DNA from: a virus | Lineage: Duplodnaviria; Caudoviricetes | DNA length: 64,000 nucleotides | Direction: 5' to 3' (one strand) | Virus record (IMG/VR): IMGVR_UViG_3300037400_004297 | Span: 12,591-76,590 of that record | Part shown: positions 58,267 through 64,000 of the stretch, in pieces | How the letters are laid out: every line of letters starts with the position of its first letter | Numbering within the stretch: position 1 is the first letter of the stretch | Notes under the pieces: generated by a model | The model's database searches: none | The model's input: only the letters and a program-made list of their open reading frames with translations | Told to the model about the DNA's origin: nothing | Position numbers and translations under genes: made by a program

Positions 58267-59361
58267 ATGGAAAATCTGTTTAAAGACGCATATTTCGGCA
58301 AATCATTCATGATGATAGGAGATAGTTTACCCTATTGTCTTGGTTGCTCGTATTGTAGAGCAAATGATGGTGATGAGAAACATTATGGATTAATTCCAAC
58401 GGAGATTAATCCAAAGTTCAAGAACATACCAGTAGCTGTTAATTTGTTTTATGGAGACCCCATGATACAAATTGACAATACTTTGTCGTATCTAGATAGG
58501 TTAGAGAAGGCAGGGCATACAGGACCAGTTATAATCATCACTAAAGGTAATCTTAGGAAATTCCCTAAGGACAGGAAATACAACCTTGACCTTCACTTTG
58601 GGTTATCCACGTTTGGTGTTGACACAACCCCACGTTATGATGGGGGAAGTATGGGCTGCTTCAGAGATAATCTCGAATATGCCAGGGAACTTGGGTATAA
58701 GTACTCCATAGAGTTCAGACCAATCATAAACCACATCAATGATGACTGGGAAACGATAGAAGACGTGTTTAAACTTGCTTCAGAGCATAATACTGGAATA
58801 GGCTATTGTGGATTACAGGTATCACCGATATTGAAGAAACTCATTGAGATTGAGAAACTACCCTTTATACCGTATGAAGGCTGTGGATTTGGAATGAAAA
58901 AATATCTTCCACCAAGGATAACTTCGATATTTGACATCTTGAATCAGAAGTATATAGACAGCGCCCATGCGTTCAGGAAGACATCGTGTTTAATTGCATG
59001 GAAACATGGTCTGGATAGAGACCCTAATGCACACTATTACAGACCTAATGAGGTTGGATGTAAGACATGCCCTATGTATGAGAAGTGTATGACTTATAAG
59101 AACAGCTTGAGTAAGGGTAACGATATCGACATACCATTTGATTATGAGATTGTGGAAAAAGATAAGCATGTATGTGGTTTATTCAAGCTTGGCGTGTGCA
59201 AGTTTCCAAGTTCAGATTGTATGAACATCAATGGAAAGCTGATAAAGATAAATGAGAAAATAACTACGACAGACGTTAGGCTAATCAAGTGGCTTACAGG
59301 ATATACCGTTGATGCTGAGTTTGTTGAATCACCTTTTATGAGTAAAAAATGGATAGTTTAA
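58267..59361 (+). CDS. Putative radical-SAM-like Fe-S protein with atypical CX2CX2C motif
   Basis: YCLGCSYC near the N-terminus; YGDP, IIITKG, EFRPII; extra Cys clusters in the C-terminus. Confidence 0.5.
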   Translation: MENLFKDAYFGKSFMMIGDSLPYCLGCSYCRANDGDEKHYGLIPTEINPKFKNIPVAVNLFYGDPMIQIDNTLSYLDRLEKAGHTGPVIIITKGNLRKFPKDRKYNLDLHFGLSTFGVDTTPRYDGGSMGCFRDNLEYARELGYKYSIEFRPIINHINDDWETIEDVFKLASEHNTGIGYCGLQVSPILKKLIEIEKLPFIPYEGCGFGMKKYLPPRITSIFDILNQKYIDSAHAFRKTSCLIAWKHGLDRDPNAHYYRPNEVGCKTCPMYEKCMTYKNSLSKGNDIDIPFDYEIVEKDKHVCGLFKLGVCKFPSSDCMNINGKLIKINEKITTTDVRLIKWLTGYTVDAEFVESPFMSKKWIV

Positions 59362-61188: not shown

Positions 61189-61216
61189 AAGGGGGCTAGC
61201 ACGTAAGTCCCCTTTT
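61189..61216 (+). terminator. Intrinsic terminator
   Basis: AAGGGGGCT...AGTCCCCTT plus T tract. Confidence 0.7.
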
Positions 61217-61229
61217 AAATTTTTTCATT

Positions 61230-61808
61230 ATGGCAGTTGTTGAAAAAACAGAAAGACCACCATCGTATATACATGATATAAATAAATATGGAGGTGGTGG
61301 TGAAAAGATTTTTTTAGCACTTGAGGGTGGTAATTTCTCAAGGAAAAAATATAGGATATTTGATGTTACAAAGGATAAACAGTATCAGTTTGTTGATGTA
61401 GATTTCGTAATATCGAAGGACGGTGCAATAGATAAATTACCAGAAATCGAGAAAGTTCTTGCATTGGATTCTTTTGAAAAGGTAGAGGTGAAGGTTGATA
61501 CAAGGGCATTAGAAACTGGTAATTTGCCTTACGAAGTGGTATCGCACGGTAGTACTGGATGGTCAGTTTTAACAAAAGCCACATATGTCTATATGATATT
61601 GTGCATAGAGGGAGGTGGAGAAACAATTGCCAAGAAAATTATGTGGATAGACATGAATAAATGGCATTCATTCGCACAAAATAGAAATACTACCAAAAAA
61701 TTGAATATAATAAAGAATGAATCAATTGTTGATTTATTGTGCAGGATAAATGACATGAGGGAATATGGTGTGATACTTTCAGAAAAAGATATTAATTTTA
61801 AAGTTTAA
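61230..61808 (+). CDS. Putative PD-(D/E)XK nuclease
   Basis: YQFVDVDFV ... VEVKVDTRALETGNLPYE, matching the D..D ... EVKxD...TGN..E pattern of phage restriction-like nucleases. Confidence 0.55.
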   Translation: MAVVEKTERPPSYIHDINKYGGGGEKIFLALEGGNFSRKKYRIFDVTKDKQYQFVDVDFVISKDGAIDKLPEIEKVLALDSFEKVEVKVDTRALETGNLPYEVVSHGSTGWSVLTKATYVYMILCIEGGGETIAKKIMWIDMNKWHSFAQNRNTTKKLNIIKNESIVDLLCRINDMREYGVILSEKDINFKV

Positions 61809-61813
61809 ATGAA

Positions 61814-62746
61814 ATGGCAGATATTGAACTACTAAATAAACTTGACAACTATGACAAATCAGTATGTTATCAATACAAAAGAAGGGTTGATACTATTGAG
61901 GAAGATAAAGAAAAATATGGATGGACAAATGAAGACCTTTCTGAGATAAAATTATCTGATTTTGTTTTTGAAAATATTACATCAGATGAAGATAAAAAAG
62001 AATGTAAGAGCTTTATAGAGAGGTATGAATGGCTAGGTTGTTTGGGATGGTATAATACTCATTATTTTACCGCCAGATATGTTGGCAATAAGAAACCAGA
62101 AGGCACTGATGAAAGGGGGCTTCTTGGTGGGGTGATAGTAATGGGCATGCCAAATGCGTTTTCTAAGATGCTTGGCGAAGAAACTAGAAATCTCGAAAGA
62201 TTGGTTAATAGGGGTGCATCTGCTTCTTGGACACCTCCTCACCTTGCTACCATGTTCCTAAATTGGTGTTGTAGGTGGATGGTTCAGAATACCCAATATA
62301 GGTTGTTCACTGCATACAGTGACCCTTCTGCTGGTGAACTTGGTACAATTTACATGGCATCTAATTGGTGGCTAGTGTCTAAGAGAGGCGGTGCTGCTAC
62401 TATGTGCATAAACCCATATGATAGAACAAAAGTAATTAGTGACAGAAGGTTTAGAGCACGTTCATTCTATCGAAGATATGCAGATGAGCTTGGAATCGAG
62501 TGGCAAGATAATTGGAAAAATGATACTAAAATGCTGTGGGAAAACATACCAGATGATATAGAGAAAAAACTAAGAGATTATAGCAAAAAGAAATATGCGG
62601 AAGCTGAAAAAATAATTGTTCCAGCAAAACTTAAATGGGCATATGTTCTTGGGAAAGACAAAAAAGAAACAAAATTTCTTAGGAGAAGATTTTTGGAACT
62701 TAACAAAATATATGACCACCCAAAAAAAGAGGATAGAGGAAAATGA
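61814..62746 (+). CDS. Mom-like (GNAT-fold) DNA adenine modification protein
   Basis: FIERYEWLG, GVIVMG, LVNRGA, FTAYSDPSAGELGTIYMASNW, similar to Mu Mom family YAD...G.IY.A.NW. Confidence 0.65.
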   Translation: MADIELLNKLDNYDKSVCYQYKRRVDTIEEDKEKYGWTNEDLSEIKLSDFVFENITSDEDKKECKSFIERYEWLGCLGWYNTHYFTARYVGNKKPEGTDERGLLGGVIVMGMPNAFSKMLGEETRNLERLVNRGASASWTPPHLATMFLNWCCRWMVQNTQYRLFTAYSDPSAGELGTIYMASNWWLVSKRGGAATMCINPYDRTKVISDRRFRARSFYRRYADELGIEWQDNWKNDTKMLWENIPDDIEKKLRDYSKKKYAEAEKIIVPAKLKWAYVLGKDKKETKFLRRRFLELNKIYDHPKKEDRGK

Positions 62747-62949: not shown

Positions 62950-63477
62950 ATGGCAATAGTAATTAATTTATTCGCAGGTCCTGGTGTTGGAAAGAGCACC
63001 ACTGCTGCTCGAATATTTTCCGAGCTTAAACTGAAAGGCATAAACTGTGAAATGGCACTTGAGTTTGCAAAGGATAAAGTGTGGGAGGAATCGTTCAAGA
63101 CTATGGATGACCAGATTTATATCTTCGGAAAACAGTTTCATAAAATTTGGAGATTGAAGGATAAGGTGGATGTAATTATATGTGATTCACCATTGCCAAT
63201 TTCTATTGTTTATGACAAAGAGAATTCGCAGGCGTTTCATCAACTCATCATGGAACAATTCGATAAGTTCGAAAATTTCAATTTCTTGCTAGAAAGAGGA
63301 GGTGAATATCAGGAAAGCGGTAGGGTTCAAACTGAGGAAGAGGCAAAGGAAGTGGATAGAATTGTTAAAAGAGTGTTGGATGACAATAGGATAGATTATA
63401 CCACATTGCCTATTGATGGTGCTGCAAAGCATATTACAGGACTTATAATGAACTATTTAGAAGAGGTACAAAGATGA
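62950..63477 (+). CDS. P-loop nucleoside/nucleotide kinase-like ATPase (AAA_28/NadR-kinase-like)
   Basis: INLFAGPGVGKST, IICDSP. Confidence 0.75.
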   Translation: MAIVINLFAGPGVGKSTTAARIFSELKLKGINCEMALEFAKDKVWEESFKTMDDQIYIFGKQFHKIWRLKDKVDVIICDSPLPISIVYDKENSQAFHQLIMEQFDKFENFNFLLERGGEYQESGRVQTEEEAKEVDRIVKRVLDDNRIDYTTLPIDGAAKHITGLIMNYLEEVQR

Positions 63478-64000
63478 AAGATTTAACACAAGATTTTAGA
63501 AAATTTGCCATTAGCAACACCAATGCAAGGGCAACTGTGGTTGATGACCAAATTAAAAAGGCAAACAATCTATTAACACCTTACATTCTTGAGGAAAGAC
63601 AACTCAATGTTGCAGCGTTTGACGTATTCTCAAGACTTATGTATGATAGAATAGTGTATTTCACAGGAGTAGTTAATGATGATACATGTAACACAGCGAT
63701 TGCACAGTTGCTTTATCTTGCTTCTGTTGATGAGAGAGACATCAGCATGTATATAAATTCACCTGGTGGCTCTGTTGTTGATGGACTTGGACTAGTTGAT
63801 ACGATGAATTACATTAATTGTGATATTTCTACACTGTGTGTCGGAATGGCTGCATCTATGGGTTCTGTTCTTCTTAGCAATGGTGCGAAGGGTAAGAGAT
63901 TTGTATTGCCACACAGTAGAGTCATGATACACCAGGTAAGTAGTGGAGCGCAGGGAGTATTGAAAGACCTTGAAATAGAACTTGAGCAAACTAGAAGATG
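63474..64000 (+). CDS. clpP: ATP-dependent Clp protease proteolytic subunit (partial, runs off the window; absent from ORF track)
   Basis: DVFSRLMYDRIV, YINSPGGSV, GMAASMGS (catalytic Ser), RVMIHQ (catalytic His). Confidence 0.92.
   Translation, partial: MKDLTQDFRKFAISNTNARATVVDDQIKKANNLLTPYILEERQLNVAAFDVFSRLMYDRIVYFTGVVNDDTCNTAIAQLLYLASVDERDISMYINSPGGSVVDGLGLVDTMNYINCDISTLCVGMAASMGSVLLSNGAKGKRFVLPHSRVMIHQVSSGAQGVLKDLEIELEQTRR

What the first reader, a model, noticed from the sequence alone, without database searches (positions are those of the whole stretch)
61230..62746. PD-(D/E)XK nuclease coupled to a Mom-like DNA modifier: candidate non-methyl restriction-modification pair
Seen: right after a terminator, a restriction-like nuclease (D.D...EVK.D...TGN..E) lies 5 nt upstream of a Mom-like GNAT protein. 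Known: Mu Mom converts adenine to N6-(1-acetamido)adenine and protects against host restriction; it is not known as part of a cognate nuclease pair. Inference: the phage marks its own DNA with a Mom-type modification and uses the nuclease to degrade unmodified host or competitor DNA, giving an R-M-like self/non-self system based on hypermodification.
Basis: partly seen in the sequence, partly recalled or inferred. Interest (0 to 1): 0.7.

Follow-up and report, generated by a model that had tools for sequence, protein, structure and literature searches.

The report
Phage nuclease paired with Mom modifier
A large uncultured phage carries a small restriction-enzyme-like nuclease directly in front of a Mom-type DNA-adenine modifier. 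In other phages the same nuclease family sits behind ordinary adenine methyltransferases, so this is probably, though not provably, a restriction-modification pair in which Mom replaces the methylase.

Summary
ORF192 (61230-61808) follows a terminator-like hairpin and ends 5 nt before ORF310 (61814-62746).

**The two genes**
- **ORF310** belongs to the Mom family. It passes Pfam's threshold, and the solved structure closest to its model is phage Mu Mom.
- **ORF192** matches no named family. A confident model has the PD-(D/E)XK restriction-endonuclease fold, and E25, D56/D58 and E86-x-K88 are invariant in 30 relatives.

**Support for a restriction-modification reading**
- Of 20 close-family clusters, 5 sit overlapped behind a Dam-class methyltransferase and 4 sit directly in front of Mom. 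One distant member overlaps an N6/N4 methyltransferase.
- The Dam-nuclease pair is the only thing shared between four otherwise unrelated contigs.
- Nuclease and Mom identities co-vary across nine linked pairs.

**Caveats**
- Mom is a fixed gene of this phage group. The nuclease is an accessory insert, absent from syntenic relatives.
- Eleven of the 20 clusters have no recognisable modifier next door.
- A selfish homing nuclease is not excluded, and nothing has been assayed.

My odds for a Mom-protected restriction pair are about 0.45. If true, it is a new variant of a known kind.

The parts
61189..61224 (+). Terminator-like hairpin (9 bp stem, 8 nt loop) with a T-rich tail. It separates the VWA gene from ORF192.
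   Evidence: -16.6 kcal/mol, z = -1.9 against shuffles.
61230..61808 (+). ORF192, a PD-(D/E)XK-fold nuclease of an unnamed phage family. Candidate catalytic residues: E25 (61302-61304), D56 (61395-61397), D58 (61401-61403), E86 (61485-61487), K88 (61491-61493).
   Evidence: ORF. 33 homologues. Invariant residues. Model pLDDT 89.9. Fold matches to NhoI, I-Ssp6803I, RecU/PrfA, D212, ThaI, DpnI, Hjc, EcoRV and PvuII. Distant relatives weakly hit PD-(D/E)XK-clan Pfams.
61814..62746 (+). ORF310, a long-form Mom-family GNAT and presumed N6-adenine DNA hypermodifier. Equivalents of Mu Mom residues: R111 = R133, S124 = T146, D149 = D170, Y159 = Y180.
   Evidence: Pfam and PHROG. Alignment with Mu Mom. 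Model with Foldseek top hit 8bv8 (Mu Mom S124A), E 6.5e-7. Residue roles from PMC13219725.
60478..61182 (+). VWA-domain gene, the left anchor of the conserved VWA-[slot]-Mom-...-ClpP synteny. Context only, not part of the pair.
63474..63998 (+). Gene running off the window end, at the position where syntenic relatives carry a ClpP protease gene; taken as the right anchor of the synteny. Not scanned against Pfam here. Context only.
   Evidence: ORF. ClpP (PF00574) at this position in relatives.

Best explanation
ORF192 is an active, Mg-dependent PD-(D/E)XK DNA endonuclease from a small accessory family of large uncultured phages. That family behaves as the restriction half of two-gene modification-restriction modules.

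In this phage lineage the protective half is the adjacent Mom-family enzyme ORF310. ORF310 adds a bulky group to N6 of adenine in double-stranded DNA. In Mu this is glycyl transfer from Gly-tRNA followed by rearrangement to carbamoylmethyl.

Phage DNA carrying the mark is spared. DNA without it, meaning the host chromosome or a co-infecting rival phage, is cut.

The likely history is that a nuclease blocked by N6-methyladenine, as in the Dam-linked relatives, came to lie beside a resident Mom gene that blocks the same N6 position. A dedicated methylase then became unnecessary.

- **Shown:** the fold, the conserved catalytic residues, Mom membership, and the recurrent tight linkage to three classes of DNA modifier.
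- **Inferred:** nuclease activity, its blockage by the modification, the chemistry performed by ORF310, and the direction of the partner swap.
For: 1. **Fold and active site.** The model has pLDDT 89.9. The top 14 structure matches are PD-(D/E)XK nucleases, mostly restriction enzymes, with Z 8.4 down to 5.9. E25, D56, D58, E86 and K88 are invariant in 30 sequences; E25, D56, D58 and K88 stay at least 90% conserved in 101 distant relatives.
2. **Dam linkage.** A Dam-class methyltransferase lies directly upstream and overlaps by 11-38 nt in five clusters: L006, L007, L014, L016, L051.
3. **Cassette behaviour.** In an all-against-all comparison of four of those loci, only the Dam and nuclease genes are shared. 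Four of the five linked Dams cluster together, apart from 77 orphan phage Dams. None of 80 other phage Dam loci carries the nuclease.
4. **A third modifier class.** An N6_N4 methyltransferase overlaps a distant family member, L112.
5. **Mom linkage.** Pairwise identities of nuclease and Mom co-vary (Spearman 0.48, pairs not independent). The nuclease evolves faster: 55-91% identity against 61-97% for Mom.
6. **Asymmetry expected of restriction-modification.** Mom without the nuclease is common. In this clade the nuclease is never seen without Mom.
7. **Precedents.** An unrelated restriction-enzyme-like gene overlaps a true Mom gene in cyanophage DSL-LC03. The order nuclease-then-modifier with overlap is known from Eco29kI (PMC3113576 abstract).
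8. **ORF310 is a real Mom relative** and keeps R111, D149 and Y159.
Against: - Mom is a core syntenic gene found in more than 1,500 relatives. Syntenic phages have the VWA-Mom slot empty or filled by an unrelated 109-aa ORF. Adjacency could therefore reflect a permissive insertion site.
- 11 of 20 close-family clusters have no recognisable modifier next door.
- A large distant subfamily from gut phages sits behind an integrase instead.
- The Mom-linked members form one clade. The Mom association may therefore be a single historical event.
- The top structural neighbours include modification-dependent enzymes (NhoI, Eco15I, DpnI), a homing endonuclease and junction resolvases, at Z values too close to separate.
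- ORF310 differs from Mu Mom at S124 (Thr), H58 and R151, so its chemistry is not certain.
- Only 34% of the genome is held, so a methyltransferase elsewhere cannot be excluded.
- There are no experimental data.
Confidence: 0.45

Rival explanations
1. ORF192 is a free-standing homing endonuclease. It is a selfish mobile nuclease gene that has inserted into the intergenic slot in front of Mom. It spreads by cutting the empty allele in co-infecting relatives, and it does not depend on the Mom modification.
For: - Presence and absence vary between syntenic relatives, and the slot is variable: empty, a 109-aa ORF, or an extra 175-aa ORF in L040.
- The gene has its own upstream terminator.
- It evolves faster than both flanking genes.
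- The second-best fold match is the PD-(D/E)XK homing endonuclease I-Ssp6803I, Z 8.1.
- Other homing-type nucleases lie just upstream of Mom genes: HNH-AP2 in Vibrio phage 501E54-1 and HNH in Geobacillus phage PK3.6.
- Mobile elements sit near some family members: TnpB, a serine recombinase, and a LAGLIDADG insert.
Against: - Homing does not explain why one nuclease family lies, usually overlapping, next to three unrelated classes of DNA modifier.
- Homing does not explain why Dam plus nuclease travel as a two-gene unit between non-syntenic genomes, with co-clustering Dams.
- The protein is one compact domain with no extra DNA-binding module.
- Catalytic residues are intact in all 30 members, with no decayed copies.
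- Nuclease and Mom co-diverge rather than the nuclease hopping between genomes.
Confidence: 0.25
2. ORF192 is a housekeeping DNA-processing nuclease. It would be a Holliday-junction or branched-DNA resolvase of the Hjc/RecU type, or a repair nuclease. Its position beside Mom would be incidental.
For: Foldseek's best hits are Hjc resolvases (prob. up to 0.96). VIA-align gives RecU/PrfA Z 7.2 and Hjc Z 6.4-6.6. The E...D...ExK tetrad matches that of Hjc-type enzymes (my knowledge of the family).
Against: - A resolvase would be a core gene. This one has only 33 close homologues, against more than 1,500 for the neighbouring Mom, and it is absent from syntenic relatives.
- The repeated overlap with methyltransferase genes is unexplained.
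- No homologue was found in 50,697 sequenced phage records.
Confidence: 0.1
3. ORF192 is a modification-dependent (type IV-like) nuclease. It would cut DNA carrying a foreign mark, such as host or rival-phage methylation, while Mom-modified phage DNA escapes.
For: The best structural match is NhoI of the BisI family of modification-dependent enzymes (Z 8.4). Eco15I-N (Z 7.2) and DpnI (Z 6.6) are also high (PMC11347163 abstract).
Against: These Z values tie with those of ordinary restriction enzymes. In five lineages the nuclease is co-transcribed with a Dam methylase, which would be suicidal for an m6A-dependent enzyme unless the specificities differ. No separate modification-reader domain is present.
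Confidence: 0.07

Closest known systems
Orthodox Type II restriction-modification systems with a D12-class (Dam-like) m6A methyltransferase and a PD-(D/E)XK endonuclease, such as EcoRV or DpnII; also Eco29kI for the order nuclease-then-modifier with overlap
   Same: A small single-domain PD-(D/E)XK nuclease is tightly linked to, co-oriented with and often overlapping a DNA-adenine modifier. In relatives that modifier really is a D12 methyltransferase. The two-gene unit moves between genomes.
   Different: Here the partner is a GNAT-fold Mom enzyme, not a SAM methyltransferase. The carrier is a lytic-looking large phage, not a bacterium. The nuclease has no detectable sequence similarity to any solved restriction enzyme. 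The recognition site and blockage by the modification are unknown.
Phage Mu Mom (with its activator Com), a stand-alone anti-restriction adenine hypermodifier
   Same: ORF310 passes the Mom Pfam model. Its closest structural match is Mu Mom 8bv8. It keeps R111, D149 and Y159.
   Different: - ORF310 is about 70-80 residues longer.
- It has Thr in place of the catalytic Ser124, and it lacks H58 and R151.
- The gene overlapping from upstream is a nuclease, not the Com zinc-finger translational activator.
- Mu Mom has no cognate nuclease.
T4-type strategy: hydroxymethylcytosine DNA plus endonucleases II and IV, which destroy cytosine-containing DNA (from my knowledge of T4 biology)
   Same: A phage marks its own DNA with a non-methyl modification and encodes nucleases that degrade unmarked DNA.
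   Different: T4 modifies at the nucleotide-pool level and replaces every C. Mom acts after replication on selected adenines. The T4 nucleases belong to other families and are not adjacent to the modification genes.
Bacterial non-methyl restriction-modification systems: Dnd/Ssp phosphorothioation and Dpd 7-deazaguanine (from my knowledge)
   Same: Self and non-self are told apart by a DNA modification other than methylation, coupled to restriction genes.
   Different: Those are multi-gene bacterial islands with different chemistry. This would be a two-gene, phage-borne pair acting on N6 of adenine.
Synechococcus phage DSL-LC03: genes annotated 'type II restriction endonuclease' and 'Mom-like DNA modification protein'
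   Same: A 185-aa nuclease-like gene overlaps, by 38 nt, the start of a true Mom gene (Pfam E 7.6e-35). The order and orientation are the same as here.
   Different: That nuclease shows no sequence relation to ORF192 (hhalign probability 0.1) and only weak Pfam hits to RE_EcoO109I and Endonuc_Holl. It exists only as a database annotation; I found no study of it.

Membership tests
PD-(D/E)XK nuclease superfamily | Core alpha-beta-beta-beta-alpha-beta fold shared with restriction endonucleases and resolvases | tested here: met
   Model pLDDT 89.9. In the VIA-align wide search the top 14 hits are PD-(D/E)XK nucleases, Z 8.4-5.9. The Foldseek hits are weak but of the same kind. The Z values are middling, so this shows the fold only.
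PD-(D/E)XK nuclease superfamily | Catalytic acidic residues and lysine: E on helix 1, D before strand 2, (D/E)-x-K on strand 3 | tested here: met
   E25, D56, D58, E86 and K88 are invariant in 30 homologues. E25, D56, D58 and K88 are at least 90% conserved in 101 distant relatives. Their positions fit the model's helix 13-38 and strands 59-62 and 82-90. Spatial clustering in the model was not measured.
PD-(D/E)XK nuclease superfamily | Significant match to a named Pfam, NCBIfam or PHROG nuclease family | tested here: inconclusive
   ORF192 itself has no hit. Among 101 distant relatives, 14 weakly hit clan members: SfsA, NOV_C, NERD, PDDEXK_5 and UPF0102. The Atlas's nearest named clusters are PDDEXK_14, PDDEXK_16 and NOV_C.
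Type II-like restriction-modification pair | Nuclease gene adjacent to and co-oriented with a DNA-modifying enzyme gene | tested here: met
   There is a 5-nt gap to the Mom gene. In relatives the gap is -14 to +10 nt to Mom and -11 to -38 nt to Dam.
Type II-like restriction-modification pair | Linkage kept across relatives and across different genomic contexts (a mobile cassette) | tested here: met
   For Dam-linked members, only the two genes are shared by four loci, and the linked Dams cluster together. For Mom-linked members, synteny is kept and the two genes co-diverge. The Mom linkage may be a single event.
Type II-like restriction-modification pair | Nuclease never found without a protective modifier | tested here: inconclusive
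   11 of 20 close-family clusters have no recognisable modifier within one gene. Their neighbours are unknown proteins, and whole genomes were not available.
Type II-like restriction-modification pair | Sequence-specific cleavage that the partner's modification blocks | not testable with these tools
   This needs enzyme assays.
Mom protein family (PF25680) | Match to the family model above the curated threshold | tested here: met
   31.3 bits against a cut-off of 27.1, E 2e-7. phrog_1384 gives 4e-11. The whole-genome scan gives 31.7 bits.
Mom protein family (PF25680) | GNAT fold closest to the Mu Mom crystal structure | tested here: met
   The Foldseek top hits are 8bv8 chains A and B (E 6.5e-7 and 9e-6). 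Generic GNATs follow from 3e-4. The model's pLDDT is 77.
Mom protein family (PF25680) | Residues essential in Mu Mom: R111, S124, D149, R151 (PMC13219725) | tested here: inconclusive
   From alignment A2: R111 and D149 are kept, as is Y159. S124 is Thr in this subclade and Ser in most long-form relatives. R151 is Ser, and is also not kept in the strong Mom of DSL-LC03. H58 and Y59 are E and W.
Mom protein family (PF25680) | HTH-like insertion needed for activity, and formation of N6-carbamoylmethyl-adenine | not tested
   The model has extra helices after the GNAT core, but I did not map them onto the Mu insertion. The chemistry needs LC-MS.
Free-standing homing endonuclease | Sporadic presence in an intergenic slot between conserved genes of related phages | tested here: met
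   The slot between VWA and Mom holds the nuclease, a 109-aa ORF, or nothing.
Free-standing homing endonuclease | Cleavage of the nuclease-less allele and gene conversion | not testable with these tools
   This needs mixed-infection or in vitro assays.
Holliday-junction resolvase (Hjc/RecU type) | Core gene conserved in related phages | tested here: not met
   There are 33 close homologues, against more than 1,500 for the neighbouring gene. The nuclease is absent from syntenic relatives and from 50,697 phage records.

The most novel reading that the evidence does not exclude
A restriction-endonuclease lineage whose relatives are protected by Dam-type N6-methyladenine has switched partner to a Mom-type enzyme. 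The result would be a virus-borne restriction-modification pair in which self is marked by a tRNA-dependent adenine hypermodification rather than a methyl group. It would be the first cognate nuclease for Mom, and an enzyme whose cutting is blocked specifically by that adduct.
Probability: 0.4. Interest if true: 0.75.

Novelty: new variant of a known kind. Interest (0 to 1): 0.55.

Why it matters
Mom has been understood for decades as a purely defensive, stand-alone anti-restriction function. A nuclease that relies on Mom for self-protection would show that adenine hypermodification can also serve as the identity mark of an offensive system. Such a system could be used to destroy host DNA or exclude rival phages.

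It would also show that restriction enzymes can swap a methyltransferase for a chemically unrelated modifier that blocks the same atom.

In practice it would supply three things:
- a new, unnamed restriction-enzyme family with about 570 representative relatives;
- a natural positive control, the Dam-linked cassettes;
- a possible reagent for detecting Mom-type modification.

If the homing-nuclease reading is right instead, the finding is ordinary.

Tried and rejected
**Searches on ORF192 that found nothing**
- Single-sequence and profile searches against PDB sequences gave only chance-level hits.
- Pfam, NCBIfam and PADLOC gave no significant match for ORF192 itself; PHROGs gave only one weak hit (phrog_13596, unknown function, E 0.0035).
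- tblastn against 50,697 phage records found no match.
- A search for longer, fused forms of ORF192 found none, which is weak evidence.
- ORF310 by sequence against the PDB did not find Mu Mom. The structure search did.
- The scan's own earlier findings held nothing on this family.

**Tests of whether unknown neighbours are hidden modifiers**
- The 253-, 256- and 277-aa proteins downstream of other family members are unrelated to Mom and to each other, and have no Pfam or PHROG match.
- The 169-, 141-, 231- and 105-aa neighbours also have no match.
- The 109-aa ORF filling the slot in L035 is not a decayed nuclease.

**Tests of relatedness to other nucleases**
- The nucleases of cyanophage DSL-LC03 and of Vibrio phage 501E54-1 are unrelated to ORF192 by hhalign.

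**Searches limited by the data or the tool**
- The genome record has no Dam or N6_N4 methyltransferase, but it is only 34% complete. The near-complete relatives' contigs could not be searched.

**Ideas dropped**
- I considered whether the Ser-to-Thr change in Mom tracks nuclease presence. It does not: L041, and P0039 (paired with a nuclease only by matching contig length), keep Ser while linked to the nuclease.
- I ran no complex prediction, because I do not claim that the two proteins bind.
Full report
**Origin of the window**

The window is bases 12591-76590 of a 76.6-kb IMG/VR virus record that CheckV rates 34% complete. The phage is therefore probably a large one, above 200 kb. Close relatives lie on metagenome contigs of 175-410 kb, several from bovine and gut samples.

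**Observation**

- ORF192 (61230-61808) and ORF310 (61814-62746) are real, co-oriented open frames 5 nt apart.
- A 9-bp hairpin with a T-rich tail lies at 61189-61224, between the upstream VWA-domain gene and ORF192.

**ORF310 is a Mom-family enzyme**

- It passes Pfam's Mom model (31.3 bits, cut-off 27.1) and matches phrog_1384, 'Mom-like DNA modification protein'.
- An AlphaFold2 model (pLDDT 77) has the Mu Mom crystal structure 8bv8 as its best solved match (E 6.5e-7). Generic GNAT acetyltransferases come next.
- Aligned with Mu Mom, it keeps R111, D149 and Y159. It has Thr in place of Ser124, and it lacks H58 and R151.
- The 2026 mechanism paper reports R111, S124, D149 and R151 as essential. 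It shows that Mom transfers glycine from Gly-tRNA(Gly) to N6 of adenine in duplex DNA (PMC13219725).
- R151 is also not kept in a strong Mom from a cyanophage.
- Family membership is therefore firm. Identical chemistry is an inference.
- The long form of 297-312 aa is abundant, with more than 1,527 hits, mostly on large phage contigs.

**ORF192 is a PD-(D/E)XK nuclease of an unnamed family**

- ORF192 itself has no significant match in Pfam, NCBIfam or PADLOC, only one weak PHROG hit to a family of unknown function (phrog_13596, E 0.0035), and none to PDB sequences.
- A word-seeded search found 33 homologues, all about 170-210 aa.
- A full profile search found 573 representative relatives, all small.
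- The AlphaFold2 model is confident: pLDDT 89.9, pTM 0.85.
- An exhaustive structural comparison puts PD-(D/E)XK nucleases in the top 14 places:

| Match | Z |
|---|---|
| NhoI | 8.4 |
| I-Ssp6803I | 8.1 |
| PrfA/RecU | 7.2 |
| Eco15I N-domain | 7.2 |
| D212 | 7.1 |
| ThaI | 6.8 |
| DpnI | 6.6 |
| Hjc | 6.6 |
| EcoRV | 6.3 |
| PvuII | 6.3 |

- SfiI and MspI follow. Foldseek agrees weakly, with Hjc on top.
- These Z values are middling. They establish the fold but do not say which kind of PD-(D/E)XK enzyme this is.
- E25, D56, D58, E86 and K88 are invariant in 30 sequences. They sit on the first long helix and on the strands where the superfamily's E...D...(D/E)xK residues lie.
- Among 101 distant relatives, 14 weakly hit PD-(D/E)XK-clan Pfams.
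- The protein-language-model atlas finds only viral hypotheticals. Its nearest named clusters are PDDEXK_14, PDDEXK_16 and NOV_C.
- No fused forms were found, and no homologue was found in 50,697 sequenced phages.

**Gene neighbourhoods: the main evidence**

I collected 100 or so loci carrying family members. I labelled the neighbours with Pfam and with local profiles.

The close family clusters at 70% identity into 20 groups:

| Neighbour | Clusters | Spacing |
|---|---|---|
| Mom directly downstream | 4 | gap -14 to +10 nt |
| D12-class (Dam) methyltransferase directly upstream | 5 | overlap 11-38 nt |
| No recognisable modifier beside them | 11 | n/a |

- A more distant member (L112) overlaps the end of an N6_N4 methyltransferase.
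- Within the fetched flanks, every Dam or Mom gene found was the immediate neighbour of the nuclease.
- The Dam-linked loci L006, L007, L014 and L016 share nothing but the Dam and nuclease genes.
- Four of the five linked Dams group together, apart from 77 other phage Dams.
- None of 80 other phage Dam loci has the nuclease.
- This is how a mobile methylase-nuclease cassette behaves. A nuclease merely parked next to a common gene would not show this pattern.

**The Mom-linked clade**

- The window belongs to a well-supported clade of 13 sequences.
- Every member whose downstream gene could be read or paired by contig has Mom next.
Nuclease identity is 55-91% against 61-97% for Mom.
- This points to long co-inheritance with a faster-evolving nuclease. 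It includes one lineage, L041, whose Mom is only about 60% identical to the window's.

**What weakens the pair idea**

- Phages with the same VWA-[slot]-Mom-...-ClpP synteny lack the nuclease. In L035 and L036 the slot holds an unrelated 109-aa ORF. In L037-L039 the slot is empty.
- L037-L039 stand for a Mom cluster of 333 member sequences.
- Mom is therefore a fixed gene with its own role, presumably anti-restriction as in Mu. The nuclease is an accessory insert.
- This asymmetry, modifier without nuclease but never the reverse within this clade, is what restriction-modification logic predicts. It is equally what one expects of a selfish nuclease inserted beside a core gene.
- Other nucleases also sit just upstream of Mom genes:
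  - an HNH-AP2 gene in Vibrio phage 501E54-1, whose Mom is 48% identical to ORF310;
  - an HNH gene overlapping Mom in Geobacillus phage PK3.6;
  - a restriction-enzyme-like gene overlapping Mom in cyanophage DSL-LC03.
- These can be read either as further nuclease-Mom pairs or as evidence of a homing hot spot.
- Most Mom genes in cultured phages are orphans.

**Weighing the readings**

- The homing reading explains the patchy distribution. It does not explain adjacency to three unrelated classes of DNA-base modifier, or the travelling Dam-nuclease cassette.
- The resolvase reading fails on distribution.
- The modification-dependent reading is hard to square with co-transcription with Dam.
- I therefore favour a restriction enzyme blocked by N6-adenine modification, protected here by Mom, at about 0.45. 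Homing stands at 0.25 and the other readings are below that.
- The mechanistic appeal is simple, but it is an inference. A methyl group and a carbamoylmethyl group occupy the same N6 position. An enzyme blocked by one is therefore likely to be blocked by the other, wherever the Mom motif covers its site.

**Novelty**

- Non-methyl self-marking coupled to nucleases is known: T4 hydroxymethylcytosine with endonucleases II and IV, Dnd/Ssp, and Dpd (my knowledge).
- Phage-borne restriction-modification systems are also known.
- I found no paper describing a nuclease cognate to Mom.
- If real, this is a new variant of a known kind, resting on a new, unnamed nuclease family.
- Nothing here has been tested at the bench.

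Noticed in passing
L054-L116 (metagenome loci), e.g. L058:2033-3522: A distant subfamily of the nuclease (168 aa, about 27% identity) sits 6 nt downstream of a tyrosine integrase in about 60 metagenome contigs, many from human gut. In some it is followed by a Schlafen/AlbA_2-HATPase_c_4 gene. This is a different context from the modifier-linked members, so the function may differ.
   Followed up: partly
L112:213-1857: An N6_N4 DNA methyltransferase (Pfam E 4.9e-41) overlaps by about 50 nt the start of a 174-aa distant family member. This is a third class of modifier partnered with this nuclease fold.
   Followed up: partly
L026:2451-3621 (Synechococcus phage DSL-LC03, OR003938.1): A 185-aa gene annotated 'type II restriction endonuclease' (weak RE_EcoO109I and Endonuc_Holl hits) overlaps by 38 nt a true Mom gene. 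It is unrelated in sequence to ORF192. It may be an independent nuclease-Mom pair.
   Followed up: partly
L033:1311-2493 (Geobacillus phage PK3.6) and L025:3067-4867 (Vibrio phage 501E54-1): HNH-type nucleases lie directly upstream of Mom genes in two cultured phages. The one in PK3.6 overlaps Mom by 59 nt. The one in the Vibrio phage is HNH-AP2, a typical homing type.
   Followed up: partly
window 61814-62746; alignment A4: The residue equivalent to Mu Mom's catalytic Ser124 is Thr in the window's closest Mom subclade and Ser in nearly all other long-form relatives. The change does not track nuclease presence.
   Followed up: yes
L010:1266-5823, L045, L046: In another branch of the nuclease family, the gene lies next to sugar-nucleotide enzymes: a GDP-mannose-dehydratase/epimerase-like gene and a dTDP-sugar isomerase. 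A dTDP-sugar isomerase also lies a few kb upstream of the VWA-Mom block in relatives of the window (L002, L037). These might be DNA or surface glycosylation genes.
   Followed up: no
L014:2083-4019; L015:1552-4073; L028:529-4531: Mobile-element genes sit beside some family members: a serine recombinase directly upstream of a Dam-nuclease cassette, a TnpB (OrfB_IS605) two genes upstream, and an SNF2 helicase carrying a LAGLIDADG insert.
   Followed up: no
window 58267-59361 and 62950-63477: A 364-aa protein has a weak radical-SAM match (E 1.9e-4, below threshold). A 175-aa AAA_28 protein matches PHROG 'thymidylate kinase'-like families. Both flank the pair, and both may relate to nucleotide or DNA modification.
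   Followed up: no
L040:682-1209: In one relative an extra 175-aa ORF lies between the VWA gene and the nuclease. This shows that the slot upstream of Mom accepts repeated insertions.
   Followed up: no
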